Of a stretch of DNA of 64,000 nucleotides, positions 27,064 to 59,196 are shown piece after piece. Below the pieces are notes generated by a model that searched no databases, had not been told where the DNA came from, and saw only the letters and a list, made by a program, of their open reading frames with translations. The DNA is from Tubulanus polymorphus (taxonomy: Eukaryota; Animalia; Nemertea). The stretch spans positions 5,464,871-5,528,870 of the forward strand of contig NC_134025.1 in NCBI RefSeq assembly GCF_964204645.1. The letters are read 5' to 3'. A program made the position numbers and the translations under genes. The stretch's first letter is position 1; each line of letters begins with the position of its first letter.

Positions 27064-28461
27064 TTATAAACTTGCTGTAACAGCGGACGAGTGAGGTACG
27101 TGGTAACCTTTATAATAGTCTGTCATGCTAACTTGGTTGTGGTCTTTGACACCGCCTCCGTGGTGGACCGGAGTAAGTTGGTTATAGTTCCCGTAACTTG
27201 CTTGCAAAGATTCGTACATTTTTAGATCCATTTTGCTTTCGGCGGATGACATGAGATTTGTGATGGAGAACGGATGGTTGAATTGATTCAGTTGTCCGTG
27301 ATGGTGGGGATGATGCGGATGACCCATGAGGCCCGATGTGTCATGAGTGAGGGATCTCAGGTCCGGATGGTGATGTTGGAGTTGTTGGGGCTGCTGCTGC
27401 TGTTGCTGCTGCTGTTGCTGTTGTTGATGTTGTTGTTGATTCACCGACGGCTGATGATGGTCCATTCGGTCCATTCGATCCATTCGGTCCATTCGGTCCA
27501 TGGGATGATTTTGATGATGAAGATGATGATGGTGAGGAGGTGTTGTGTTGTGATCATGGTTATTGTTCAACGGTTCTGGCTTGACCCCTGAGATACTTTG
27601 CGGCGAAGTAACGGATTCACACGGACTGAGCGGAGGCGACGAACACGATTTGCTTCCATTCAACGATTTGTCTGAATTTTCCGAATTCTCATCACGTTGT
27701 GTCTGCCTCAGCACCTCTTTTTTCGGACATTTGAAGCGCTTTTGTCGGCGAAGATAGCAACCGTTTTCGAACATATTTCCCGAGTCCGGATGCAAGGTCC
27801 AATAACTACCTTTTCCGGGTCGATCGGGTGTACGGGGTACTTTTACGAAACAGTCATTGAACGACAAACTATGCCTGATTGAGTTTTGCCAGCGTTGTTG
27901 ATTCTGACGGTAAAACGGAAACAGGTCCATGATGAACTGATAGATTTCGCTAAGCGTGCACATTTTATTCGGAGACTGTTGAATAGCCATGGTAATCAAC
28001 GAAATATACGAATACGGCGGTTTTGCGTGAGTGTAACTTCGACGATACGTTTTCTCTCGGGCTCGGTTGATGGCTTGGGCGCGATTATAGTCCATAATTG
28101 CCGGTGACATAGCACCGTTCATCGTGTTCATAGTTCCCATCGAAGCCATGCCGTTCATGCTACCCATAGTGTTCATATTGTTCATGCTGTTCATATTACC
28201 TGACATGGACATACCCATACCACTCATTCCAACTCCGCTTGCGCCCATGCTTCCCATACTCATAGGCTGTGGCGAATAACTCATATTGCCCATAGACATA
28301 CTTCCCATGCTGCCCATGGTGCCCATAGCGTTCATCGTGGGCGATATACTCATAGAATAGCCACTGCTACACGAGGCATCGTACGGTGACTTGGTAGACA
28401 ACATCTTGCTAACTCTGACCAAGTCCTGGCTGTATGAAGTGACGTTAGTATCTGTACTCAC
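27064..28461 (-). CDS. foxA: Forkhead box A (FoxA / fork head / HNF3-like) transcription factor, main coding exon.
   Basis: A 465-codon ORF carries a forkhead domain, '[101 protein letters not shown]', that is near-identical to vertebrate FoxA1/2 as I recall them. The N-terminus is the Met/Ser/Asn/Gly-rich type typical of FoxA. The C-terminus has the FoxA activation motif '[11 protein letters not shown]...KMDLKMYE'. The true start is uncertain: the track 'M' at 28461 is GTG, the first in-frame ATG is at 28404-28402, and a good acceptor (aaattccag|CG) at 28480-28481 could extend the exon to 28479. Confidence 0.93.
27385..27440 (-). repeat. Imperfect (CAG/CAA)n trinucleotide repeat inside the FoxA coding sequence (poly-Gln, about 20 Q).
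   Basis: The plus strand reads ctgctgctgctgttgctgctgctgttgctgttgttgatgttgttgttg, which translates on the minus strand as [17 protein letters not shown]. Confidence 0.9.
27459..27502 (-). repeat. A 9-bp tandem repeat (about 4.5 copies) inside the FoxA coding sequence, encoding (Met-Asp-Arg)4.
   Basis: The plus strand reads ggtccattc ggtccattc gatccattc ggtccattc ggtccatgg, which encodes [14 protein letters not shown] on the minus strand. Confidence 0.9.
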
Positions 28462-44100: not shown

Positions 44101-45877
44101 CCAATGGTAGAGTGTTTTTGGTCGTAAAAATTTACCGACACGTTTCGGCATGGTTTCGCTGATCAAAACGGTTCGGAAGGATTTCATTATTTGAAGATTG
44201 TACGGTAAAAAAACAAGTTTGCGTTGCGGAAAAAGTCGATGTCATGCATACTCAGACGCCAAACGGGTTGCGCGATCACGGGTTTTCAGGACGTAACAAA
44301 AATGTTATTGAGGTGAGATATTTTTCGGATTCAAGTGACTTATTTTTGATTTTATCTTCTTTGGTATTAAGACTTATTAATACAGTTTTACGGCGAGACA
44401 TTCTGTTATGATTTTATCTATCACTATCAGTCTTCGACAACTACGGATTTTCACGTGAAATATGGTCGGTTTTAGATAAGCATCTAATATTGAATTGAAA
44501 TAATCACAGATGTGTTTATTAAATATCTGGCTTATTTCGTTAATGTGAGAATGAATGTCTGCCATTTTGTACTCCTTGCTGAGATATCGAACCAGTGACT
44601 CACAAAAAGTACACGGGAACCATTCATTATTTTGTACTTTGTAGTTGTCATGGCTTCCTCACTTTTTATAGATTGCTCTGCTTTTAAATTATTCGGACCT
44701 TTGCTCAAAATAAATTTGATTTCGCGAAATTCCATTTGAGTAGTACCATCAGATTCGTTAATCATCATTCATAATATCATGGAGGTGGGAGAGACCTTCC
44801 TGACTATGTTATTACCTTTTAACACTTCGATATAAATGCAAGGTTTAATCAAGTTTTAACGAGGAAACTGTTATTCATCTCTGTATAGATTTACACCTGT
44901 TATTATTTCAGACTAACCGATATCGACACAATTTACTCAATTATTTTTGGCAGGCTAAAATGTGTGAAAATACTGAATAAAATCGTTACTATTTTCTGGC
45001 AATACTTTTCACCTAAAACTATGATAATGTTTTTGATGAATTCTGTGTGTAATAATTATTTTATTCTAAATAGGTGTAAAGTGCAAAAGAGCCGGAATTG
45101 AAAAAATATTTAATCAAATTATTTGAATTTATCCACAGACTAATGTCATACCTTTCCAATCTTGAAAATTTCTTACTTTAGAGAAATATGGCTTTTAGGT
45201 CAAATGCCAAAGAGAAATTGAATGTAGTTTAGATAAGGGTAAAATATGAACCTGAGTTTGGTATATGTAATGGATATAACATGTTTAAAGATCTGAATTA
45301 TCATTCGTCATCGGATCAACACATTCAGTAAAAATAGTGTCTTATTCGTAGACGTGCTTTTGGATTGATAAATTGTAAAAAATGAATGAATTTACTTTGA
45401 TATCTGGAACAGATTGCGCAAATAGATTATTTTTGATGTTTTGACTTATTTTAATTCTTATGTTTTTATGTTGAATACAAATGAGCTACGTAAACGTCTA
45501 CACGTATTTATAAACCTTTGATGCTACGCTAACTTTGATATCTCAAACTGAAATCATATCATTTACACCAGTTTCAATTGCAAATCCAATAAAAGTACCC
45601 CGTGGCCATTAACTCAAAAAGATATATTTCATGAAATGATGAATTCGCCCCATGTGCTTGATTACTATCTTTAGATATGTTATTATGTCTTCAAGAAGAA
45701 AAAAATACTTTGAATTTGAAATGACACAAAACATTCACTGCGCATTGTGTGCAATTAGATAGAAAAGTTTTAGAGCCCATTATTTATCTGAATGAAACGA
45801 TTCGTTGTTCAGAGTAATCCAGTGTTACTGTATCTCCAGGTGATGAGTCATATTTGTCTTATGTTTGATATTTGCAG

Positions 45878-45982
45878 GAGCGCGACTGTATGAAAGCCCA
45901 GCTGCAGCATGTTCTTTGTCGAGTCTGCGGAGATAGAGCGTCCGGACTGCACTACGGAGTTTTTGCCTGCGAAGGCTGCAAG
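45878..45982 (+). CDS. Nuclear receptor NR1 subfamily (E75/Rev-erb/PPAR-like), exon encoding DBD zinc finger I.
   Basis: The exon encodes '[35 protein letters not shown]', the nuclear-receptor P-box finger. It ends at aag|GTAAAA (donor at 45983). It starts after the acceptor tttgcag at 45871-45877; the in-frame ATG at 45890 is a possible start if no coding exon lies upstream. Confidence 0.85.
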
Positions 45983-48900
45983 GTAAAAAGCTGTTGTATC
46001 CTCTCTTCTGCATCAGTCGTCCTTTTTCAAATGATTCGATATTAGCAAGAATTTTTCAATATCTTGATGATATTTTGTCGATCGTTTTAGGCATTTGATG
46101 TCGAAATTATTTGTCGACTAATAACCACGCTATTATCGGCATAAGCCGGGGATTCACGAAAATGTTGAAACTTTCTCTGGATACATTCCATTCCGGAATC
46201 TGTTGATTAGTGGGTTTTTTATAAATACAAATCAAAATCTCAGTGAGGGCATATCAATTTATCTTCGACCAAATTTGCGGAAGAATTTACATAATTCAAT
46301 CTGTATAGCCCGGTCAATTTCTGCGACTTTGATTGGAAGGGATTTAATTTCGAGAAGAGTAAGGTTTCGGGTTTATTATCCCAACTGTAATTACTACATA
46401 ATGTCATTATCTATTTCGTTACATTAAAGGGATCAATGGACATGGCCATAAATTCTCTGTGTCAGTCTGTCCGCTCAAATCTATTGATTATAGGCAAATG
46501 ATTCTAATCAGAGGATCGAATCAAGAGATTGACTCATCATGAGCTCAATAAGAATTCGGATTTCATCAAGAAATCTGCAAGTACCTCGGAAATTCCCACC
46601 AGTATATAGAAGAATCCACGCGTCCTGAAGCAATTCCCATAAGGAGGTCATCTAGACAGTGACCGCGCTGTAGGTTGTATTTGGTTACGCCGACACCTCG
46701 TGACATCTTAATGACTTTCGCAAGTTTTCATCGTTCATCGCGTGGAACAGCAGTTGCAACCAGTGGACCACAAAGATCTTGTTAATTAAATATTTGTTAA
46801 AATTGATGATACCAAATACACCAAGTTCATCTTGATAGCTATAGCTATTTCGCTGTGTTTAGATTAGATTATGCTTATGGAATGATGAAATGCATAAATT
46901 GACACATATGAACGGTATATATTCGAAAGCGGAATGGAAACTAATGAAATGTTACGATTTGCGCTCGGTGGAAACCTTTCGACCTTATAACATCGATATC
47001 AAATGAACCTTCGGGCTGAGCCTAATTAGAATTTTAGACGACTTCCTCTGCATTCGTAATAATCTACATATATAATATGATAGTCAGTCGGGTTGGCTAA
47101 TGCAGTCAGTTAATTATCCGTGCTAACAAGTTTTCACCGGAAAATTGATTATTACATCTGTCTAACATGAGGTTTACCATTTTACCGATTTTCGAAAGAG
47201 ATCTGAATAGACGGTTATTACTCGACCTGCATCGCCGTTAACCGAAAATAAGTTAACATTCCCGTGTAACAGCCTATAGCCGAAAAATCGTATACCCTTT
47301 CGTCTGATATAAATTCTAGTTTTATTACCATCACCGGTGAAAAACGTCTGCGAATAATTTCGGTGCAGACGAAACGCGCGAATATGAGTGAAGAAAAGAT
47401 TTCTAAAAGTACACAACTACAAAAGATTCGTTTGGGCAATATTATCCTCAACGTTGTCTGACACGGACGGTGTGTTGCGCGCGCTGAGATGAATACCCGT
47501 GTGTTCCAGAAAAATAATGCTAACCACTTTGTGGGCTTTAGTTTTGATTGTCCGACAACTATAGCCCACTGAGTCTGATAGAACGTAGCTGAATAGGGAA
47601 AGGTCTTGTTTCTGTGCCATTTAGACGGTGTTCTTCGTGGTTTCTAACTGGTGCTTAATAACCGACTTTCTTCCGTCTATCACCTTTATCTCGCAAATAT
47701 TTGTGTCTTGAAGTTGTGGTCAATTTGGGATGTCAATAGATGAGCAAGTTGAGTTGGCCCGCCCCTACCTCCGAGGTTGACCACTTTCTTACAATGTTCT
47801 CATTCATAATCGCAAAATTATTCAATGCAGCCGCAACAAAAGAAGTTATCTATGTAACAACGTTTGTTCTTGATGAATTATCAATACTGCAATGAGCTGG
47901 TGGTACTCGAATAAAATGGCGGACTCTGTGCTGCAAATTCAATGAAGTGTGTTCTCGACGTAAATATGCAAATGACCTTAGTAAGGTCAGCTGTAGCCGG
48001 CACTATCGCCTTGAGGGCAAACTTGTACTCGAGGATGGCCTCAGAATTGTATAAATATATACCCTTGTCTCAACTAGATTCGATTGACTAGTTGAGTCGT
48101 GCACCGTCGTCCCAATTCCCCCTCAAGGGTATTACATTTCGATGAGCAGAATGGCGTAAATCATACGGACGGAACAATTGAATTACAAGGCAGATTTCAT
48201 GAGATCTAAGTAGAAAATCATCACCAAAAAGATCAATATACCCCCGATATACAAATCTGGCTTCTCGGTCATTAAAGTTCTGAAAATAGCTTTAATACAA
48301 ATACATGACTCAGCTCAGCGAGGATAATAAGTACGAAGTTGGTTTCTTCCAGTTCGGAGGAAATGAAAATTTGGTACACGAAAACCGAGTAAATATACAC
48401 AGCGGATCAAATCCGTCGGACCAATTCACGTTATTAAGTTGTTAATACGAGGGAAATATGATTTCTGTTTGGAATCTGGGCAATAATCCGATTGTATAAA
48501 CTTATTGGTCAATACGTGTCTATCTATGTAATATAGATTCATCTCGGTTGACAGGCCGGACATTCCTGATATATCGGCGCATTGTAATCATACAATTTGA
48601 AAATCCTAATTCAATATACTATGTTGTATCAAATAAACAGAAGCATCGACGTTCATTTGTAAATAGCGAAATACCTTTTCTTCTTTTCTTCCCATTCTCT
48701 TGAAAATCTACGATTGATGTCAACATATTTTTCTTTCTAACCTCCTTGACTTGGATTCATTTTGTTTGCGTTAGGTTCCTTGTTAGCAACTACAGCAGCT
48801 GGACTCTATATCAGATATCTGTTTAACTCCGTTTAATGTTTGTTGAAATCTTTTTATGACACTATTATATGAAATATATAACATAATTCGGATATCGTTA

Positions 48901-49023
48901 ATGTCAGACACATTTTCACAGTCCCAAGAGGTCCGATTTTAGCGGAGTCTACCGTACATGTTTGAGATATTTTTGATGGATTTTATAGAAATCTTAATTC
49001 ATAATCATAATTTTCTATTTCAG

Positions 49024-49168
49024 GGATTTTTTCGACGTACGTTGAAACATAATTTGCAATACAAAAAATGTCAGAATCCGAAAGGATGTCTGATAATGAG
49101 GATCAACCGGAACCGTTGCCAGTACTGTCGCATGAAGAAGTGTTTTTCTGTGGGCATGTCTCACGATG
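49024..49168 (+). CDS. Same nuclear receptor gene, exon encoding DBD zinc finger II.
   Basis: Encodes 'GFFRRTLKHNLQYKKCQNPKGCLIMRINRNRCQYCRMKKCFSVGMSHD', a D-box finger with the RINRNRCQYCR motif of NR1D/E. Acceptor is ttttctatttcag; donor is GTAAGT at 49169. It joins the previous exon in phase 0. Confidence 0.9.
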
Positions 49169-49263
49169 GTAAGTCCGTAAGAAATATATAGATATATGTA
49201 TTTTTATTTTATTTCATGCGTATGGAGTTAATAAGTTGGTTTATTGGATCACTTTGTTTACAG

Positions 49264-49469
49264 CTGTGCGATTGGGTCGGTGTCCGAAAAAAGATCGACC
49301 GAGCTCGTCATTCATGGTACATCTTCCAAAAACGGCTAACGGAACAGTGGACACTAAACGTCAAATACAAGCCGAACAAATGATTCTGAATATTCACAAA
49401 GCGCTGCGTGAGCTGCCGACCACCGGGATTAAACTAAACGGCATTTACGATGGGGAGGGTTATCAGAAG
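49264..49469 (+). CDS. Same nuclear receptor gene, exon encoding the T/A-box and hinge.
   Basis: Encodes '(D)AVRLGRCPKKDRPSS...GIYDGEGYQK'. The split codon g|ct gives GMSHD-AVRLGR, matching the conserved GMSRDAVRFGR of E75/Rev-erb. Acceptor is tttgtttacag; donor is aag|GTAACA. Confidence 0.85.
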
Positions 49470-49578
49470 GTAACAACATTCATATTTCTGCATTTCAATT
49501 AAATGTGTGAAGATGTTCTGTTGTTTTGCAAAAAAATCTTCTCCGAAATAAACAGAAACGAATTATTTTCCATTTCAG

Positions 49579-49951
49579 ACTCAAGAAATGCCAGACGGTA
49601 CAAGATACATAGCGCATATAGTCAAGATATTTGATTATGTAAATCGTGTAACGGCCTTCGCGCGGGGCATCCCTCAATTTTCTTCCTTGAGCATTTCCGA
49701 CCAACATACACTATTAAAAAACGGCGCGATGGAATTATCGGCGCTGATCGATTTCAACGAATTTCGCAACGCGAAAGAAGAGGGTTTTAAACCAAGCGTA
49801 ATATACAGTTTGACCAGGGAAGTCTGGAACAATCAGGAAGTGGTCCACGGACTATGCGAGGAATACTACAACTTCGCGACAAAACTTGACAAACTAAAAC
49901 TTACCGATGTCGAAACTGCACTGTATATGGCTCTAGTGCTATTTTGTTCTG
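49579..49951 (+). CDS. Same nuclear receptor gene, first exon of the ligand-binding domain.
   Basis: Encodes 'TQEMPDGTRYIAHIVKIFDYVNRVTAFARGIPQFSSLSISDQHTLLKNGAMELSAL...ALYMALVLFCS', whose helix 3-5 signature 'F..IP.F..L...DQ..LLK.G..E' is nuclear-receptor. Acceptor is ttccatttcag; donor is tct g|GTAGGT in phase 1. Confidence 0.85.
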
Positions 49952-50153
49952 GTAGGTAATTTAGTTCAGGCCATTTTGTTAGATTATGATACATATGTGT
50001 TAATTGAAAAATGACTATATAAATCTCCTCGAAGATGTAAGAGATACTGATTTGATCTTCATATGAATAAAAGGAATGGGTTTCGAATGCAGTATGCTCA
50101 AAAGATTCAATAATTATTCGCTGTTAACTAACCTAGCGATATGTATGATTTCA

Positions 50154-51055
50154 GATCGCGAGAGTTTAGAAGATTGCAAAGTGGTAGAAGATATCGAAAT
50201 GGCGTTAGCCATGGCTCTGAAAACCCAATTCTCCATTAACCACGCCGAATCACCGAACGCTTTTGCCACCGTACTTTATCTAATTGTTGATCTCAGGGCA
50301 TTGTCAGTGAAATACTGGGAACTTATACTAAAGGCGCCAGTCAATGCAGCATCCGATGATGCTCATATAGAACTAGGACTATCAGAAACCGACGAGCCAA
50401 ATAAAGCAACACCTGTCAACGCAAATGATCAATTGGGCAGGGAGTTGCCGGCATCTGACGGTCACAATAGTGATGTTAAAATCGAAGCAGTTTCTTATCC
50501 CATAAACGATCACCAACAACGGCGAAGTCCAGGTCAGAATGGCTGTTCGCCCAGATCCTCCGTGTCGGACGATACCTCATCGGTCGGGAATAGCAGCTTG
50601 AAAAATCTGGAAGACTACTATCAGAAACATTCGACGACGAAACGAAATAGCATCAACGAAGAGACATGTAGTAAAAGATCGAGCGTGTCGTCGAGCAGGT
50701 CTTCTCCCGAACAGATAGACCGGCCATTCGATTATAGCTTGAAACAAAGGTCACCGGACAACAACTCGCACCTCGTCGTGCCGCAAATGCCGCCTGTCTT
50801 AACCGTTGCACGATCGATGGAACATCAACGCCCTTTGGACTTTACAGCGCAACAACATCGCCATTCGAGCCTGGCGCTTTCACCCGCGCAACAAGAACTG
50901 CTTTACAAAACGAGACTTTTAGCTGAACACAACCATTACATGCAACTTCACTACGCATTCAACGGTATTCAATCGCATTTTCCAATCTATCCCACGGAAT
51001 GTGTTCCCGGTCTCCGTCGGTTTTTCCCGCAAAACAGGGGCCAACAAAATAGATG
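50154..51055 (+). CDS. Same nuclear receptor gene, last exon (LBD helices 7-11 plus a long Ser-rich C-terminal tail).
   Basis: Phase-1 junction G+AT gives 'LVLFCS-D-RESLEDCKVVEDIEMALAMALK...FATVLYLIVDLRALSVKYWELILK', the NR helix 7-10 pattern 'LVLFSPDR'. No AF-2 (helix 12) motif is visible, as in Rev-erb. The coding sequence ends at a TGA. By my count the ORF spans 50075-51055; the ORF track lists it as 50076-51056. Confidence 0.85.
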
Positions 51056-54000
51056 ATTTTTCATTGACGTAGGATTTTTGAAATTTTCAGAATATATTGT
51101 CCCGGTGTACGACTCCATGTGTTACTCTATTAACATGCGTATATAATGCTTTTTTGCTTAGAAGAAAATCGACCCTTGAATTTGTATACTAGTCATTTAA
51201 GAGTTCCACAAGTAAGCCAGCATCATTAGCAAAGTTTATCCATATATAGTCAACCGCTATAGGCGCCACCGGTGAATTATTGAATGAATTGTTATACAGA
51301 TATATTTATTATTATCAAATTATATAGACACATACGTAAGATTATTTATATGTTGTGAATTATGATATGGAGATTTTGTGAGTTCGTTGTTTTTGACAGA
51401 AATTATGAAATGGTCCCGGTATCCAGTATGCCAAACAGTACATCCAACTGATTCATGTGTGCCTCTTTTCATGATATGGGATGTTGTTGAAAAGATAGTG
51501 ATGTGGTGTTATAGCTTGCTATTGTATAAAATATCTTGATTATTATCTAAAATAGAGTGATTTATGTAAGAAGTATATTTGTAAATATTATGTGATTGTA
51601 TGATGAATTGTGAGGTTCTTTAACCATTCAAAAAATCTAATTTTGTTGACCTATACACGCCAACTGTGCTGGAATTTCATACATTGTATCACAATCGATT
51701 TTAGATATTTTGTAGTCTGAACATCCGATCTGTTGAGGGCTTTAGGGCACAATTAGATTTGATTTTTGAGAGGCATTGAACAAATATGGGCATTAAAATC
51801 ATCATTGGGAAAGTGGGTGCTACAATAGGAAGAGTAATTATGATTGCTTCTTCAATAAAATCACGGATTTCGAAATGTACTTTAATCTGTGAGAATTTAA
51901 TCATGTTAATCGTCAAAAATTCTTTTTCTCTTCCCTACACATTCATTTGAGTGTAAACAGCTCAATGTGCTATAGTAACGATATCGTACAACCTGGGACG
52001 GTGCAATAAAAGCCAAACCCTGCCAAAAAGCTACGGTGGTCATAAACACACAAATAGGCTTTGCTGAAAATCGAGTCTTCGCGCAACTCGTCGTCATTGA
52101 TAAACCATTTGTGTTATTTGCATTTGCAAGGTTTTCTACTTTTAGGGAAGCAGCGAAATTTCTTTTTCACAATATAGAATTGCATCATATTCTCCAAAAA
52201 AGAGGCTCCAGCTCAAACATTAGAACACAAATGTTCGGGTTTCCATCATCGTGAATTCATGCTGTTGCAGTCATTCTAAAAATGCTTATGAAGCTATTAT
52301 CTTTGTCTCCGATATTTTCTACATGGTTTGTCAGTTTTTTTTTGTGCCATAATTAGTTCTTTTGCCATAAGCGTTTTATTCATTCATTTCTTATACAATA
52401 TTTTATTGTGCTTTTTAATCGAATGGAATGTATTCTGCATTCATACTAGACATATACCCGAAGAAAAAATGATATGATATGGTTTTAATTTAGATCGTAG
52501 TTGGTAAAATGTCGAATTTTAAGACTTCCTTCTAGTCAGACGTCTTCATTTTGAACGATCAGCTCGAGGTTGTTCCCGTGTTAGGGATTTAAATGGCCAG
52601 TGTTGCACGTCGACACATGCAGTCGATTATCAAAAAATTGGCTTATCAAGCCCATTGTCCACGACAGCGTTTAATCGATCCTTTTTTGCCCTGGGTGAAT
52701 TGCAAAAACCATATTGTCGTTGAGACGAAAAATACATTTTATATTGTCAATAATAATGTGACGTTCGATAGATTGGTCACTTTCATGATAGACCCGGGGT
52801 CAAGTCATCCCCAGAGATATCTGATTCTTATTGTAACCCTCTACAGTGGAACTGATACCAAACGTGTATCTGAGATACCCAGCATCAGTCACGTTGTGCC
52901 AGTAATCCTTAATCAATGGGAATGTTCTTTTTAGATCTTCGGCGCACGAATGGTTATTGTAAGAGGTATTGGAACAATATTTGTCGACATGATTATATAT
53001 GAAGGCCTATGATATTGATATATTATTGAAATAAAGATATCATTATGAATGAATTATAAATTTGCGAATTCGTTCTTTTATATTTTTACGTACATATATT
53101 CAGGTGGAGTAGATATCACTGCTTCCAAAGCGAAATGTTGAAATGGATGGAGATATCCATTCACTTACACATCTTTGTGATTAGCTGGATTTTAGAGAAA
53201 ATCATCTTGACAAAATACTCCAAGGCTGGAAGGACCAACATGGACCATAGATGCGGGCTTACTTCGTCGAGTAAAAAAGTGATATTCAGAATTTTGCCTA
53301 TTTCGCTGTGGAAGAAACATTGGTCATTTGGTAATTGGTTTTCTAATGATTTATATATTAAGAGTGGCTTCATTTGTCAGTTTTAGTTTTCGTTGTTTAT
53401 CCCGATATACAAACACTACTGTGCTGTAATTATAACCCACCAAATCTCTTCAAAGGATATGCGGAACACATCAATGATATGATATACATCAATGATACAC
53501 ATTTATTTCTATTTCCGAATTGATTCGCAATTTGATGCTATTACATAGGTGACAAAAAGCTTTTCAATATTTTCCTCTCGTTAGTCAATAAATCTATTCC
53601 AGCTGACAATTTCTCCCAAAAGCTGGTATCAATTTTCTGATTTAACACCATCAGAATATATCGAAAAAGTTTGGACGAATTAAATGAATATTGAAAAAAA
53701 TCTAAACCTTTTACTGAGTCCATATGATAGTTGTTGGTTGTAAACTAACTGTGACGCGGATGGTAATATTTCTATCGAATCTGAATCAGTACAAATGTCT
53801 CCTTAGCTAGGATGTGAATGGAGTGAGTATATTTTCACGGAAGACAATCGAGTAAATTGCAACGTATCGACATTAAGGGACCATTGGCGGTTAAGTAAGA
53901 GATCCCGCTGTCATCGGCGCGGTTATTAAACTAATTACGGCGAAGAGACCCGACCATGTGGTGCCGGGGCGAGCAAAGTGCGATGGAGGAAAAGTAGAAT

Positions 54001-54195: not shown

Positions 54196-54208
54196 AGTTA
54201 TTTATTTT
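54196..54208 (-). terminator. Polyadenylation signal of the CNPase-like gene.
   Basis: The plus strand reads ttatttatt (54198-54206), which is AATAAATAA on the minus strand, about 15 nt 3' of the stop codon. Confidence 0.4.
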
Positions 54209-54220
54209 GAAGTAAAAGCA

Positions 54221-54807
54221 TTAGAGATAAAAGTTGAATTTTGTAGCGAGGAACATTGGCATTTTTGTGTAGACGAAAAATCTCCCCTGGCCGTAGTATC
54301 TCACCTGCATTTTATCATTTAAATCGAAATGTGCCGTATTCGACAAACATTTTTGTTCACATTGTATTATGTCAACAAGATCCAAGCCGGTCGTAACCGC
54401 AGAGACATCTTTAGCACAACCCAATGTTATATGCCCTTTGCTTCCAAAACCGGAGGTCGGATGGAAATTGGGTGGATACGAAGTCGAGCCCATTCCGAGG
54501 TTTATGTCGTTACAACAGCCTTGGTAGCAAGGTGCAGAGCGGTCTTTACAATTACCGTCAGTATCATTCTGCGCCCAGAGAGGTAACTGTCGCTCGGTTA
54601 AACGAACTCGTGCGCCGAGCGTTCGTGGTGTCAGTAGAAAACCAACGACTTCGATGACATAGAAAGACCCTAAAGCTTCGCGAACTGCGCGTCTTTGCTC
54701 GTAAGTGGAACATTCGGGTACCGTTCCGCGTCCACAGAACATGGCCGTGACATGAAGAGGCATACTGTACTTTGTCATGTCGGAGTAGTAAGTGGACAGA
54801 TCAAAAC
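54221..54807 (-). CDS. CNPase-like 2',3'-cyclic-nucleotide 3'-phosphodiesterase (2H phosphoesterase superfamily), terminal coding exon.
   Basis: Two H-x-T motifs are present ('MPLHVTAMFCG' and 'KGHITLGCAKDVSAVTTGLDLVDII'). 'LLTPRTLGARVRLTERQLPLW' closely parallels human CNP '[22 protein letters not shown]' and '[22 protein letters not shown]' as I recall them. Acceptor is catttcatatacttttag at 54808-54809. A stop follows, with AATAAATAA about 15 nt downstream on the minus strand. Confidence 0.85.
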
Positions 54808-54898
54808 CTAAAAGTATATGAAATGGAAATATAGATGGATTGGAAAAGAGCAGATGTAGAATTTACTTTCTACCGTTAGAAGAAATCTTCATTTATAC

Positions 54899-55042
54899 CT
54901 GGAGTAACGTTGAAATTTGAAAGCATTTCTGACCGAACGTTTCGTAGCTGAATTAGCTCTTGGAATATCGTTCTGCCTTGATTTTCTAACCAGTGTGCGC
55001 TATTATCACCCAAAAACCATCCATAAAACAAAGGCTGCTTTG
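54899..55042 (-). CDS. CNPase-like gene, preceding exon.
   Basis: Minus-strand translation 'KQPLFYGWFLGDNSAHWLENQGRTIFQELIQLRNVRSEMLSNFNVTP' matches CNP '[43 protein letters not shown]'. Acceptor is ccttttttcag (AG at 55044-55043); donor is cca g|GTATAA at 54898. The 91-nt intron and phase-1 junction give '...NVTP-G-FDLSTYYSDMTKYSMPLHVTA', which parallels CNP 'QFVPGDEP...MDLVTYFGK...HCTT'. Confidence 0.8.
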
Positions 55043-55179
55043 CTGAAAAAAGGCAAGGAGTGTGTTTTAAAAAGGTTTCATGAAATTATAAATGACTTTC
55101 AATGAAAACTACTTTTTAATAAATGAATTATCAATTGTGCCTGAAAATCTTCTGTTTGTTGAGATTTACCTTCAATTAC

Positions 55180-55230
55180 CAGTGCCATCCAAAATATCAT
55201 AATATTTCGAGAAAACATCATTTTCATGAA
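55180..55230 (-). CDS. CNPase-like gene, probable 51-nt upstream exon.
   Basis: It is flanked by the acceptor ctattcgcag (AG at 55232-55231) and the donor g|GTAATT (55179-55178). It encodes '(x)HENDVFSKYYDILDGT', and its phase-1 end joins the phase-2 start of the next exon to give '...DGTAKQPLFYGWFL'. Further 5' exons (a kinase-like domain, if present) were not resolved. Confidence 0.5.
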
Positions 55231-57582
55231 CTGCGAATAGAACTAAATAGAGGTTAATCATAAAGAAGAGAAACCGAAGAAAGTCTAAATGGCAATATGT
55301 AAAACGCAATCGTAAACATTATATAGTGTTGGAAATATCAGCGTATTATAGCCTAGATTTATTTCAGGGAGACGTCACAATTTCTTTACCTTTAACAAAG
55401 AGTAGGCCTATATATCACTAGTAGTACCGCGAATGTTGACTATACTTTTGTTTTGAAAATGAATTTTGCTTTCGATCATTAATTGAACGGTATAGAGAAC
55501 GATTTGATTTGAACATTATCTAATCATTGCAACAAATCTAGTACTAATGCTTAACTAGATCAAGATAAGACGCTTTGGAAATCATCCAAAATTGCAATAA
55601 CCGTATTTCCGAACTGGGTACATTTTTCATCGTTTTTTGGAATTAAAAAAAATAAATTTATCATCTTTCATTCTAAGCACGATAAGTATATATACTTATA
55701 GAGCTGATAATCTTGGTTTTTTTTAAGATAAATCAACTTATTTTATAAAATCGATTGGTCAAAGGATGTGGACTCAATCTCAATCCTGGTACGAATAAGT
55801 TATTTTATACATAATATCTACAAACGGTTGCTCTTAATGAAAGTGCATTTGTTTACACCAAAGAGCAGCACGGAAATTCTATATTACATGTTCGTGTTGA
55901 ATCTGATCCCGATCATTTTGTAAATTCTAGTCACAAAAAAATATAATCGTTAATTGTTGAATGCTGACACTGTAATATAGTAATCCTGTATCTCATATCA
56001 TAGCATTTGTCACTAAACCACATGAGACCGGGGTGCGTGGCGACGTGTGGCTCTTTTTGGGTTTGATAAGCGCTGCGTGATAAGTATAGACGCCAGACGC
56101 GGTAAGTTGAATAACAATATTGGATTTTTTACAGTTCTTCCCAAAAAGACCATCATACTTTTGAAACTGGAATCGTCGTTCTTTCAATATCATTTCCTAC
56201 GAAACGCGACAAGCCAACAACCCTTGCGCACTGGAGTTTTGGCGATACATAAAGGCAACTGCTGAACTTGGGAAAATCATCACTTATGTTTGGACAAATA
56301 AGCAAGTAAATAAAGATGTGCGTCTGGATAAACGAGAAAGTTAAGCTGTTCTGGGGCCGTTTCAATAGAAGCTCGTGAAATTCGGAATCAACAATTGAAT
56401 ATAAATGTCTTCAGTCAATCGCCAAAAGTTTCGTAAACATAATTATTTACATTAGTAATTTGTATTTCGATGCGTTTGTACATATCGTTGAATAGGGAGG
56501 ATTTTCTCCCACTTTCGCGGCACAAAGTCTCTTTCAATCGGCGAACAATGCATGTGAGAAGACGCAGTCGGGAGCTCGTATTCTTCTAGGAGAAAATTGC
56601 AACAATACGATATAAGAAGTCTGAAATATTAGCTCATTGAGGACGAAAAAATACCTTTTCGTATCATAAGGATGATTTTTACTGTACTCAATTCACCGTA
56701 ATTTCGATACAATTTTCACGAGTAAACAAGTGAAATTTGGATTTTCCATATGCTCTATTGACTGGGTATTTACATATTCATATACCCCAGCTTTTCGATG
56801 TAGCAAAATTAGGCCTTTTATCCCACTGCGTTTAATGAACGTTTGAAGTAGAAATTCTATGACGACCCAGCGATCGTCCCAGAATGGCACGCAACGTTTG
56901 CTGAAACTACATCCGGTGGTTTCGGTTGTCAGCGGTACATCAAAGCACCATATTTCCCCCATACATTCACACCATAATAACAGTTCATTCTATGAAAAAC
57001 TTACAAATTATCATCATTGTATTGTAATATTATCAATATCGTGACGCGGTGGCGCAGAAGAATATAATGACTTTAATAATTAATATGGTATTAGCTGGTT
57101 TGCATGCGTACTGAAAAAGGCAAAGCAGGCATGTAAGTAAGGCCGCGAATGAACTTTCTATTGTGAGTTATTCTGATTAATAGATAATTAGGTTGAATTA
57201 CAGGTTTCAATGTTACTGTCACATCATGCACTGATGAAATGAATCAAGTAGTTAATCTTTATCGGTTTCGAATTTTTCGGCCATGTGTTTCGTATCTGTT
57301 TACGCATACTCTGCCCACGATATTTTCACGAATGATATATCTGAATGAGTTATATTTCATTGTGCGTATGCTATCTATATACGAACGCACAATGGTTATT
57401 TTCGAAAATCCATTTTGAATTCACCTTTCCAGGAACGACTCCCCGCGAGTGAAAAGCGCCGACCTTTTGGATTTGAGGGATCGCGTTGAATTGTATTCGA
57501 AAAAAGTCATCTTTTTATTATGACCGAATAAAAAGGACAACTCGATCAAAACAAAAGAGAAAAGTCCAAAAACATCTTAATC

Positions 57583-57791
57583 ATGATCGAACCGAAGTGG
57601 AGTTTTTGGGATATATTTTGCGCGGTGGTAGCGCGATTGATTTTTGCTCTCCACTGCATCATAGCAGCATGGAAGGTGGTCATGGATTATCAAAACCACG
57701 TTTACTGGTTGGTATTGCTAGGTCTGATCGGTTTGGTGGCCGATGGCATCTATGTGATCATAATAAAAAAGGGAAACGTCCATTTCAAATG
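57583..57791 (+). CDS. TMEM26-like multi-pass transmembrane protein, exon 1 (ATG start).
   Basis: ATG at 57583. 'MIEPKWSFWDIFCAVVARLIFALHCIIAAWKVVMDYQNHVYWLVLLGLIGLVADGIYVIIIKKGNVHFKW' is hydrophobic and resembles the TMEM26 N-terminus (..RLLFLLHSLVGVWRV..YWLLALLNLL..KFKRGRGYKW) as I recall it. Donor is caaatg|GTAAGT in phase 2. A TATA-like 'ctatatac' lies about 200 nt upstream. Confidence 0.75.
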
Positions 57792-59196
57792 GTAAGTATC
57801 ATTGATTCATTCACCCTAAAAACTCATAACTAAATGAATGAACATCAAGTTGATTTAATTTGATGACTTAGACTCCAATCATGTCGAATTTAACCAATTC
57901 GGATGACCGTTCAAATCGAATATCTTTTAGAATATTTTCTGATTCAAAATGGGATAATTAAACAAACGCCTTAGTCGGACAGACTTGCATGGTCCATAAA
58001 AATCCAACTTTAGTTTACTCTAAGGTACCCAGCAGCAATCTGATTTCAAGTCTACTTTAATATGTTTCTGATATCATCAGATATGACTGCTGTACGATTC
58101 TATGACATCAAAACCGCAGCTGAAACTTACAATCAAACAGCAACGCAACGCGTGTATATATATATCATATACAATGAACATTATCATATTGTTATTTGAT
58201 GCGTTTCCTTTTTTAAAAGAAACCTGGTTACTTTGTGACATACTACCTACTAACGCTAGCGGTTGCACCTCGGGCGGTGCTGTAAAAATAACCAGCTCAT
58301 ATACGAAACAATTTACCTCAATTTCAATTGCCATTGGCTTTTCGCTAGATTGATCAATTCTCATCACAGTTAAGCTACATGTATGTATATTTTTGGGAAA
58401 AAAGCTTTCGACTGGCGGGGAACTAGAAACCATCGCACAAAAGTCAATTCCTGTAATCTATTCCCAAGCAAGACTCGAGTTTACGACAGGGAACTTACTT
58501 ATTTCGGTTTTCGTAAAAGTGTCACCGATAGGTATAAACAACTGGAAAAGCGCGTGATCAATAAATGAAACCACGGCAGCGAATTAAAAACAAATCTTGA
58601 AATATAAATCAACGTCCTGCTGCGTCTCTGACTCTAGAAAGACTATCGTCATTCACCATGTGTCTAATTTGCATAATGGAGAAGCGGTCAAATCATTGAA
58701 ACTTGGATGAACAGGATCAATCAGTATTTGATGTCACTGGCCATAGCTGATTACAGTCAATAATGAATATGTTTCTTGGTGAAAACTGATGCGCAAATCA
58801 CATAAACACCTGTCTCTATTACGCATCGTATTATTTTTGGTCATGCATGAACGATGATTTCAGAACGCTGCAAATGACTAGGATCGGACCACTAGTTTAT
58901 CCTCACTTAGTAATATTTATACTTTCTTTTAATTTTTTTTTTTTATATTCAGCCAGGGCATTAGGCGCATTTTTCATGAAAAGTTGGGACCTCGGGGTCC
59001 CTTTATGGTCTTTTTCATCAGTACGTTTTATGATGTAGAAAATGTAACTTTTCAATTCATCTAATAGTGATGCAACTTTTGTGACTTAAAAATATAATAA
59101 TAAAGATAATATACAATAATAATTCAGTCGCTTCAGTCGCCGAAATATCGCTGTTTTGATTAAGTTTTGTATTCAAATGATTCTTATTAAATTAAG

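What the first reader, a model, noticed from the sequence alone, without database searches (positions are those of the whole stretch)
54221..55640. CNPase-family 2H phosphoesterase gene in what looks like an invertebrate genome; N-terminal kinase-like half unresolved.
The catalytic-domain similarity to vertebrate CNP (H-x-T-x motifs, [19 protein letters not shown]) is strong across three small exons with 91-nt and 137-nt introns. Vertebrate CNP is a myelin marker, and invertebrate homologues are poorly characterised. A possible upstream fragment at about 55561-55640 (-) translates '...TQFGNTVIAILDDFQS', reminiscent of the CNP 'RILVLDDTN' P-loop-kinase-like region. Every frame between that fragment and 55230 is full of stops, so the 5' structure is unclear.
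Basis: partly seen in the sequence, partly recalled or inferred. Interest (0 to 1): 0.6.

Follow-up and report, generated by a model that had tools for sequence, protein, structure and literature searches.

The report
Kinase-less, probably secreted CNPase-like enzyme gene
This ribbon-worm gene encodes only the catalytic half of the myelin enzyme CNPase, preceded by what looks like a secretion signal instead of the usual kinase-like half, so the "missing" half is absent rather than unresolved.

Summary
The CNPase similarity is real. The spliced exons match Pfam CNPase at E 6.8e-34. They translate exactly to NCBI's 262-aa "2',3'-cyclic-nucleotide 3'-phosphodiesterase-like" protein of the nemertean Tubulanus polymorphus. 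Both H-x-T motifs are present, and an AlphaFold model superposes on mouse CNPase catalytic-domain crystal structures (TM 0.84-0.88).

The N-terminal half is resolved: there is no kinase-like domain. A profile built from 57 kinase halves finds nothing in the window. A divergent TMEM26-like gene starts 2.36 kb upstream. The first coding exon encodes a 20-residue hydrophobic, signal-peptide-like leader.

The Lineus longissimus orthologue has the leader and the start of the catalytic domain in a single exon and shares the phase-1 intron. That intron lies within seven alignment columns of one in kinase-bearing brachiopod and oyster genes, so the nemertean gene probably derives from a PNK/CPDase-type gene.

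Similar kinase-less forms with a signal peptide, often with a C-terminal hydrophobic tail, occur in Daphnia and springtails. They carry 4.5 times more N-glycosylation sequons than kinase-bearing relatives.

Best reading: a secreted or lumenal 2',3'-cyclic-nucleotide phosphodiesterase. Secretion and activity are inferred. The gene is already machine-annotated, so interest is moderate.

The parts
55170..55227 (-). Coding exon 1 (model A, the NCBI model). ATG at 55227. Encodes MKMMFSRNIMIFWMALVIE plus the first base of Ala20, a signal-peptide-like leader.
   Evidence: The spliced CDS translates exactly to P0001. ATG 55227 is the first start after an in-frame stop 6 codons upstream. Charged residues are K2 and R7, the 10-residue hydrophobic core is I9-I18 (Kyte-Doolittle maximum 2.7-2.9), and Ala is at -1.
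55043..55169 (-). Intron 1, 127 nt, phase 1, GT-AG. It lies exactly at the leader/catalytic-domain boundary.
   Evidence: GC 0.27 against 0.40-0.46 in exons 2 and 3.
54899..55042 (-). Coding exon 2. Start of the catalytic domain (AKQPLFYGWFL...NVTP).
54808..54898 (-). Intron 2, 91 nt, phase 1, GT-AG. It sits at CDS nucleotide 202, the same position and phase as the only intron of the Lineus orthologue.
54221..54807 (-). Coding exon 3, including the TAA stop (54223..54221). Holds the bulk of the catalytic domain.
54743..54754 (-). First 2H motif, H86-V-T88-A (mouse CNPase H230/T232).
   Evidence: Read directly. Invariant in alignments A1 and A2. Residue roles come from PMC4643303.
54422..54433 (-). 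Second 2H motif, H193-I-T195-L (mouse CNPase H309/T311).
54201..54206 (-). Candidate polyadenylation signal AATAAA, 14 nt after the stop codon.
   Evidence: Sequence only; its use has not been shown.
55180..55261 (-). Alternative first coding exon (model B). This is also hydrophobic and also has no kinase.
   Evidence: It cannot be told from model A without transcript data.

Best explanation
The locus is a small three-exon gene of the nemertean Tubulanus polymorphus. It encodes a stand-alone CNPase-family 2H phosphoesterase domain behind a short hydrophobic leader, with no PNK-like kinase domain and no CaaX box. The most likely mechanism has three steps. First, the leader acts as a cleavable signal peptide (predicted cut after Ala20), so the mature protein starts at the catalytic domain (KQPLFYGWFL) and is delivered to the secretory pathway as a soluble protein. 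Second, it hydrolyses 2',3'-cyclic phosphates of nucleotides, and possibly of RNA ends, to 2'-phosphates by the CNPase mechanism. In that mechanism His193 activates water, His86 protonates the 3'-O leaving group, Thr88 and Thr195 hold the phosphate, and Phe91 and Val205 sandwich the base. Third, outside the cell or in a lumen it would clear the 2',3'-cyclic products left by transferase-type RNases, as part of digestion, salvage or purine signalling. Shown here: family membership, intact catalytic residues, absence of the kinase, and conservation of the architecture in a second nemertean class. Inferred: secretion, activity, substrate and physiological role.
For: Family: Pfam CNPase at E 6.8e-34. 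PDB sequence hits to human, mouse and rat CNPase and goldfish RICH at E 1e-24 to 1e-20. An AF2 model (pLDDT 78, pTM 0.76) matches mouse CNPase catalytic-domain structures at Foldseek E 1.9e-16, target TM 0.84-0.88. Catalytic and binding residues: H86, T88, H193, T195 are invariant across 11 kinase-less homologues. F91 corresponds to F235, V205 to V321, F25 to Y168 and K191 to R307. No kinase: tblastn with a full-length fish CNP and a 57-sequence kinase HMM find nothing (best E 0.76, wrong strand, 24-30 kb away). A TMEM26-like gene starts head-to-head at 57583. Exact identity to NCBI's 262-aa model. Conservation: the Lineus orthologue encodes leader plus catalytic start in one exon, has an upstream in-frame stop, has no kinase within 10 kb on either side, and has the same phase-1 intron at CDS nt 202. 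Secretory targeting: the n/h/c layout of the leader, with residues 1-6 and 12-17 below pLDDT 50 in the model. Homologues have clear signal-peptide-like leaders and C-terminal hydrophobic tails (Lineus, Daphnia, Allacma, the Bradysia-labelled protein). N-glycosylation sequon density is 1.93 per 100 aa in kinase-less forms against 0.43 in kinase-bearing forms, Mann-Whitney p 6e-9. A Cys pattern (C92/C100, CC, CxxxC) is conserved among Tubulanus, Lineus and the metagenomic protein P0168.
Against: No dedicated signal-peptide or GPI predictor and no transcript data were available. Two overlapping first-exon models exist, so the exact N-terminus is uncertain. The Tubulanus protein itself has only two sequons, an odd number of cysteines (9) and no C-terminal tail. 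Its 150-189 insertion is modelled at low confidence. Tyr168 is replaced by Phe and Arg307 by Lys. The sequon test treats related sequences as independent. Activity and substrate are untested, and CNPase's own physiological substrate is still debated (PMC4643303, PMC10792529).
Confidence: 0.65

Rival explanations
1. It is an ordinary two-domain CNP / PNK-CPDase orthologue, and its kinase-encoding 5' exons were missed by both the gene model and this analysis.
For: A possible AG acceptor lies just upstream of the ATG (cag|ttcATG, in frame), so an upstream coding exon cannot be excluded from this exon alone. Most family members (83 of 153 with a near-complete domain) carry a P-loop domain.
Against: No kinase-like sequence on either strand of the window. 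This includes the 8.8 kb upstream on the gene's strand. A TMEM26-like gene on the other strand starts 2.36 kb upstream. In Lineus the leader and the catalytic start share one exon, with a stop 5 codons upstream and no kinase in 21.5 kb. NCBI's model is identical.
Confidence: 0.04
2. The hydrophobic N-terminus is an uncleaved membrane anchor or an organelle-targeting peptide, as in the mitochondrial CNP2 isoform, and the catalytic domain works inside the cell on the cytosolic or matrix side.
For: Vertebrate CNPase is membrane-tethered by prenylation, and its CNP2 isoform has an N-terminal mitochondrial signal (PMC7246452). Many invertebrate kinase-type homologues begin with MG, a myristoylation-like start (19 of 46), so membrane tethering is a recurrent theme. 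Tubulanus has few sequons.
Against: The hydrophobic core is only 10 residues, too short for a typical transmembrane helix. It is not an Arg-rich amphipathic presequence. Sequon enrichment, conserved cysteines and C-terminal GPI/TM-like tails in the kinase-less homologues point to a lumenal or extracellular domain.
Confidence: 0.15
3. It is a decaying or non-functional remnant of a PNK/CPDase gene that lost its 5' half.
For: Loss of the kinase half could be read as truncation. Tubulanus and Lineus proteins are only 38% identical. The Y168F and R307K substitutions.
Against: The reading frame is intact across three exons with canonical splice sites. All four catalytic residues are invariant in 11 kinase-less homologues from several phyla. 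The architecture and intron are retained in two nemertean classes. The core is modelled with high confidence.
Confidence: 0.06
4. It is a secreted 2H enzyme with a substrate other than 2',3'-cyclic nucleotides, for example 2'-5'-linked signalling nucleotides or RNA ends.
For: Other 2H phosphoesterases cleave 2',5'-oligoadenylate (PMC8406329, title and abstract seen). The protein has a 40-residue Cys-rich insertion (150-189) next to the second motif that vertebrate CNPase lacks.
Against: It belongs to the CNPase family proper, with the base-stacking Phe and Val and the beta5-alpha7 loop residues conserved. Nothing here tests any other substrate.
Confidence: 0.1

Closest known systems
[quoted passage not shown]
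   Same: Same Pfam family (PF05881), same predicted fold, both H-x-T motifs, and the Phe/Val base clamp. About 26-30% identity over the catalytic domain.
   Different: No N-terminal PNK-like P-loop domain and no C-terminal CaaX prenylation box (it ends FNFYL). It has a hydrophobic signal-peptide-like leader and a 40-residue Cys-rich insertion. It is not a myelin protein, because it comes from a nemertean.
Invertebrate and fungal PNK/CPDase tRNA-healing enzymes (lancelet PNK/CPDase, yeast Trl1 kinase-CPDase module)
   Same: Homologous CPDase domain. A phase-1 intron lies within seven alignment columns of the corresponding intron in the kinase-bearing Lingula and Saccostrea genes, which suggests descent from such a gene. 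The lancelet enzyme has measured CPDase and PNK activity (PMC5434554).
   Different: The kinase domain that defines a healing enzyme is absent. The predicted location is secretory, not nucleo-cytoplasmic, so a role in 5'-phosphate tRNA ligation is unlikely.
Machine-annotated kinase-less 'CNP-like' proteins of Lineus longissimus, Daphnia pulex/pulicaria, the springtails Allacma fusca and Orchesella, and a Bradysia-labelled record
   Same: Same architecture: a hydrophobic leader directly followed by the CNPase domain, with the four catalytic residues invariant. Lineus is the orthologue, with a shared intron.
   Different: Most relatives add a C-terminal hydrophobic GPI/TM-like tail that Tubulanus lacks. 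The Allacma gene has a different intron layout. A single origin of all kinase-less forms is not supported by the rough trees (NJ bootstrap at most 3 of 100).
Bacterial periplasmic CpdB (2',3'-cyclic-nucleotide 2'-phosphodiesterase/3'-nucleotidase)
   Same: A functional analogy only, from my own knowledge and not tested here: an exported enzyme that processes 2',3'-cyclic nucleotides released by RNase outside the cytoplasm.
   Different: Unrelated metallophosphoesterase fold and opposite regiochemistry (it yields 3'-nucleotides). It is not a homologue.

Membership tests
2H phosphoesterase superfamily / CNPase family (Pfam PF05881) | Two H-x-T/S-x motifs | tested here: met
   HVTA (residues 86-89) and HITL (193-196). 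Read from the sequence and invariant in alignments.
2H phosphoesterase superfamily / CNPase family (Pfam PF05881) | Profile match above the curated threshold | tested here: met
   117.9 bits against a cut-off of 25, E 6.8e-34, covering profile positions 2-211 of 236.
2H phosphoesterase superfamily / CNPase family (Pfam PF05881) | CNPase catalytic-domain fold | tested here: met
   The AF2 model (pLDDT 78) against mouse CNPase crystal structures gives Foldseek E about 1e-16 and target TM 0.84-0.88. This is a predicted structure, not a solved one.
2H phosphoesterase superfamily / CNPase family (Pfam PF05881) | Substrate-binding residues of CNPase (Tyr168, Phe235, Arg307, Val321) | tested here: met
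   F235 corresponds to F91 and V321 to V205. Y168 corresponds to F25 (aromatic kept, hydroxyl lost) and R307 to K191 (charge kept) (roles from PMC4643303).
2H phosphoesterase superfamily / CNPase family (Pfam PF05881) | 2',3'-cyclic nucleotide 3'-phosphodiesterase activity | not testable with these tools
   Needs an enzyme assay.
Two-domain CNP / PNK-CPDase architecture (orthologue of vertebrate CNP in the strict sense) | N-terminal P-loop PNK-like domain (Pfam AAA_33) upstream of the CNPase domain | tested here: not met
   tblastn and a 57-sequence kinase HMM find nothing in the window. Only PF05881 is recorded for the NCBI protein.
Two-domain CNP / PNK-CPDase architecture (orthologue of vertebrate CNP in the strict sense) | C-terminal CaaX prenylation motif (vertebrate CNP) | tested here: not met
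   The protein ends ...KFNFYL. Vertebrate-type homologues end CTIL, CTIM and similar.
Two-domain CNP / PNK-CPDase architecture (orthologue of vertebrate CNP in the strict sense) | Shared gene structure with kinase-bearing genes | tested here: inconclusive
   Phase-1 introns fall within 7 alignment columns of each other in Tubulanus, Lineus, Lingula and Saccostrea, but in a gappy loop.
Classical secretory-pathway proteins | Cleavable N-terminal signal peptide | tested here: inconclusive
   The heuristic n/h/c layout is met (K2 and R7; I9-I18; A at -1), and homologues have clear signal-peptide-like leaders. No SignalP-type predictor was available, and two alternative first exons exist.
Classical secretory-pathway proteins | Marks of lumenal or extracellular exposure (N-glycosylation sequons, conserved cysteines) | tested here: met
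   For the group, 1.93 against 0.43 sequons per 100 aa, p 6e-9, and a Cys pattern conserved among Tubulanus, Lineus and P0168. Tubulanus alone has only 2 sequons.
GPI-anchored / C-terminally anchored ecto-enzymes | C-terminal hydrophobic anchor signal | tested here: not met
   Absent in Tubulanus: the stop follows FNFYL directly and AATAAA lies 14 nt later. Present in Lineus, Daphnia, Allacma and others.

The most novel reading that the evidence does not exclude
Several protostome lineages (nemerteans, cladocerans, springtails) have moved the CNPase catalytic domain to the outside of the cell, as soluble or GPI/TM-anchored ecto-enzymes. This would create an extracellular 2',3'-cyclic-nucleotide (or cyclic-phosphate RNA-end) phosphodiesterase activity, a dedicated ecto-enzyme for a step that in mammals is attributed to the cytoplasmic, prenylated CNPase. 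It may have arisen more than once by loss of the kinase and gain of a signal peptide.
Probability: 0.3. Interest if true: 0.6.

Novelty: new variant of a known kind. Interest (0 to 1): 0.4.

Why it matters
CNPase is one of the most abundant myelin proteins, yet its physiological substrate is still debated. The family is usually described as a cytoplasmic kinase-plus-phosphodiesterase module related to tRNA healing enzymes.

A conserved subgroup that has dropped the kinase and appears to enter the secretory pathway would separate the phosphodiesterase chemistry from RNA repair. It would point to a role for 2',3'-cyclic nucleotide turnover outside the cell, in digestion, salvage or purinergic signalling.

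It would also supply small, single-domain natural enzymes for comparative biochemistry. For this scan, the practical result is narrower. The "unresolved N-terminal half" has a simple answer, and the gene is already in NCBI with the same model.

Tried and rejected
- **Kinase half upstream.** All were negative.
- **Exact look-up of the Tubulanus protein for annotated neighbours.** It is not on record. The same is true of Lingula isoform X2.
- **A kinase-bearing paralogue in nemerteans.** The word-indexed search with a 42-sequence profile returned only 7 hits, none nemertean. Names for 20 representative kinase-type proteins included no nemertean. This is inconclusive, not negative.
- **A single clade of all kinase-less forms.** One NJ tree groups them, but bootstrap support is at most 3 of 100, and only 40 of 100 for Tubulanus plus Lineus, with some undefined distances. 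Best-hit ranks are mixed for nemerteans and Daphnia. An 'F-x-P-T' motif before the second H-x-T looked like a shared derived character but also occurs in kinase-type proteins.
- **First bootstrap attempt.** It timed out.
- **AlphaFold-database fold search.** The library was unavailable.
- **Literature.** No paper in the held library links CNPase to Daphnia, Collembola or Nemertea, or describes a 2H phosphoesterase of this family with a signal peptide.
- **Rfam and tandem-repeat scans of 52-59 kb.** Nothing found.
- **Paralogues.** There is no second CNPase-like copy in the window.
Full report
**1. What is in the sequence**

On the minus strand between 55227 and 54221 there are three coding segments. 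Joined at canonical GT-AG sites, they give a 262-codon reading frame:
- exon 1, 55227..55170
- intron 1, 127 nt
- exon 2, 55042..54899
- intron 2, 91 nt
- exon 3, 54807..54221, including the TAA stop

The translation is identical, residue for residue, to protein P0001. NCBI and UniRef list that protein as [quoted passage not shown], on a 32-Mb scaffold.

Exons 2 and 3 have GC 0.40 and 0.46, against 0.27-0.29 for the introns. An AATAAA lies 14 nt after the stop.

**2. Is the CNPase similarity more than chance?**

Yes.
- The spliced product matches Pfam PF05881 (CNPase) at 117.9 bits against a cut-off of 25, E 6.8e-34.
- It matches the solved catalytic domains of human, mouse and rat CNPase and goldfish RICH at E 1e-24 to 1e-20.
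- An AlphaFold2 model built on 11 homologues has mean pLDDT 78 and pTM 0.76. Its only low-confidence parts are the N-terminal leader (residues 1-6 and 12-17 below pLDDT 50) and residues 150-189.
- That model hits mouse CNPase catalytic-domain crystal structures first, at Foldseek E 1.9e-16 and target-normalised TM 0.84-0.88.

Both 2H motifs are present: H86-V-T88-A at 54754..54743 and H193-I-T195-L at 54433..54422.

Using the residue roles in PMC4643303 and the alignments:

| Mouse CNPase residue | Tubulanus residue | Comment |
|---|---|---|
| Phe235 | F91 | base stacking conserved |
| Val321 | V205 | base stacking conserved |
| Tyr168 | F25 | aromatic kept, hydroxyl lost |
| Arg307 | K191 | charge kept |

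The enzyme therefore looks catalytically competent, but this is an inference.

**3. The N-terminal half**

I tested this in four ways.
- tblastn with a full-length fish CNP that has the P-loop domain finds only the catalytic exons.
- A profile HMM built from 57 kinase halves of family members, run with all filters off against every six-frame segment of the window, has a best E of 0.76. That hit is on the wrong strand and 24-30 kb away. The three minus-strand upstream segments it reports have E of 56 or more.
- At 57583..57795 on the plus strand there is an exon matching the N-terminus of TMEM26 (Pfam E 1.6e-11, profile positions 4-58). The two genes are therefore head-to-head with 2.36 kb between their start codons.

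There is no room for, and no trace of, a kinase half.

Instead, exon 1 encodes MKMMFSRNIMIFWMALVIE(A). It has two basic residues, a 10-residue hydrophobic core (I9-I18, Kyte-Doolittle maximum 2.7-2.9) and Ala at -1. This is the layout of a cleavable signal peptide. Cleavage after A20 would leave a mature protein that begins where the crystallised catalytic domains begin.

One uncertainty remains. A second ATG at 55261, in another frame, can be joined to exon 2 through a GT donor 10 nt upstream of the first (CTG|GTAATT). It gives MINLYLVLFAVHENDVFSKYYDILDGT|AKQ..., which is also hydrophobic at its start and also has no kinase. The donor of the NCBI model fits the consensus better. Only transcripts can decide between the two.

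**4. Evidence from relatives**

A profile search of 1.84 billion representative proteins found 479 family members.

*Kinase-bearing forms.* Most members carry a P-loop domain in front of the CNPase domain. They are annotated in locusts, krill, prawns, horseshoe crab, ostracods, brachiopods, molluscs, echinoderms, hemichordates and lancelets. Invertebrate homologues are therefore common, and the lancelet enzyme has been assayed (PMC5434554).

*Kinase-less forms with a hydrophobic leader.* A minority lack the kinase and start with a hydrophobic leader directly followed by the (P)LYYGWF motif. These are Lineus longissimus, Daphnia pulex and D. pulicaria, the springtails Allacma and Orchesella, a Bradysia-labelled record and several metagenomic proteins.
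- Several of these leaders have the typical n/h/c layout of a signal peptide, for example Allacma MKAFRLIQAVLLLAATYVTA|QD.
- Most of these proteins end in a hydrophobic tail typical of GPI signals or single-pass anchors.
- Their catalytic domains carry 1.93 N-x-S/T sequons per 100 residues, against 0.43 in kinase-bearing domains (Mann-Whitney p 6e-9). The sequences are not independent, which is a caveat.
- Tubulanus, Lineus and metagenomic P0168 share a cysteine pattern (C92/C100, CC, CxxxC) that vertebrate CNPase lacks.

Taken together, these features argue that the domain faces the lumen or the outside. The Tubulanus protein itself has no tail, only two sequons and nine cysteines, so it would be a soluble secreted or lumenal form.

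**5. The Lineus locus settles the architecture**

In the L. longissimus assembly the orthologue has two coding exons. The first encodes the leader and the first 47 residues of the catalytic domain without interruption. A stop lies five codons upstream of the ATG. The kinase HMM finds nothing in 21.5 kb. The upstream neighbour is an oppositely oriented ZGRF1-like helicase gene.

Its single intron is phase 1 at CDS nucleotide 202, exactly the position and phase of Tubulanus intron 2. Lineus is a pilidiophoran and Tubulanus a palaeonemertean. The kinase-less gene is therefore conserved in two nemertean classes.

Kinase-bearing genes of Lingula and Saccostrea also have a phase-1 intron within seven alignment columns of this site, in a gappy loop. 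This is consistent with descent of the nemertean gene from a PNK/CPDase-type gene whose 5' part was replaced.

The Allacma gene has only one intron, inside the leader. Rough NJ trees and best-hit ranks do not support a single origin of all kinase-less forms. How many times the kinase was lost stays open.

**6. How it most likely works**

| Step | Basis |
|---|---|
| Co-translational entry into the ER via the leader, with cleavage near A20|K21 | Inferred |
| Folding of a single CNPase domain, probably stabilised by disulfides in and around the 150-189 insertion | Inferred |
| Hydrolysis of 2',3'-cyclic phosphodiesters to 2'-phosphates by the two-histidine mechanism described for mouse CNPase (PMC4643303) | Residues shown, activity inferred |
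| Role in clearing the cyclic products of RNase action outside the cytoplasm | Speculative |

For the last step, cyclic nucleotides arise from RNA breakdown, and a 2',3'-cAMP-to-adenosine route is documented in mammals (PMC7246452).

Rivals, each with a refuting experiment in the structured fields, are:
- missed kinase exons (about 4%)
- an intracellular anchored or organellar enzyme (about 15%)
- a decaying remnant (about 6%)
- a secreted enzyme with a different substrate (about 10%)

**7. Comparison with what is known, and novelty**

It is a member of the CNPase family of 2H phosphoesterases, with all sequence and fold criteria met. It is not a two-domain CNP/PNK-CPDase, because the defining kinase domain and the vertebrate CaaX box were both tested and are absent.

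The gene is already in NCBI with the same model and a machine-given name. I found no paper in the held library that describes kinase-less, signal-peptide-bearing CNPase homologues.

I rate it a new variant of a known kind, of moderate interest. Secretion and activity are not demonstrated.

Noticed in passing
window 27064..28461 (-): A single long ORF (465 aa) encodes a FoxA/HNF3-type forkhead transcription factor: Pfam Forkhead 3.9e-38, Forkhead_N 5.5e-13, HNF_C 2.1e-7. It has His- and Gln-rich low-complexity runs.
   Followed up: partly
window 45869..51056 (+): A nuclear-receptor gene. C4 zinc-finger exons lie at 45869..46042 and 48943..49188, a ligand-binding-domain exon at 49588..49959 (Pfam Hormone_recep 1.8e-9), and a long Ser-rich C-terminal ORF at 50076..51056. 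It converges on the 3' end of the CNPase-like gene.
   Followed up: partly
window 57583..57795 (+): First coding exon of a TMEM26-like gene (Pfam Tmem26 1.6e-11, profile positions 4-58). It is head-to-head with the CNPase-like gene, with 2.36 kb between the start codons, so they may share a bidirectional promoter region.
   Followed up: partly
window 55320..55326 (-): A TATATAA sits about 60 nt upstream of the alternative ATG at 55261. If it is a real TATA box, the mRNA would include ATG 55261. That ATG would then be either the true start (model B) or an upstream ORF overlapping the NCBI start. The match carries little information in this AT-rich DNA.
   Followed up: no
family-wide (proteins P0008, P0015, P0018, P0022, P0026, P0037 and others): 19 of 46 kinase-bearing, non-CaaX (mostly invertebrate) family members begin with MG, and 13 fit a myristoylation-like pattern. 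None of 18 CaaX-ending vertebrate-type proteins does. The family may use three different membrane tethers: N-myristoyl, C-prenyl and GPI/TM.
   Followed up: partly
L002 12587..13133 (+), Allacma fusca contig: An Archease gene (cofactor of the RtcB tRNA ligase) lies about 5.5 kb downstream of the springtail kinase-less CNPase-like gene. This is probably coincidence, but it is notable given the family's link to tRNA ligation.
   Followed up: no
protein P0196 (labelled Bradysia odoriphaga): A kinase-less, signal-peptide-bearing CNPase-like protein deposited under a fungus-gnat name clusters tightly with springtail (Allacma-type) sequences. This could be contamination of that assembly or a real dipteran copy.
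   Followed up: no
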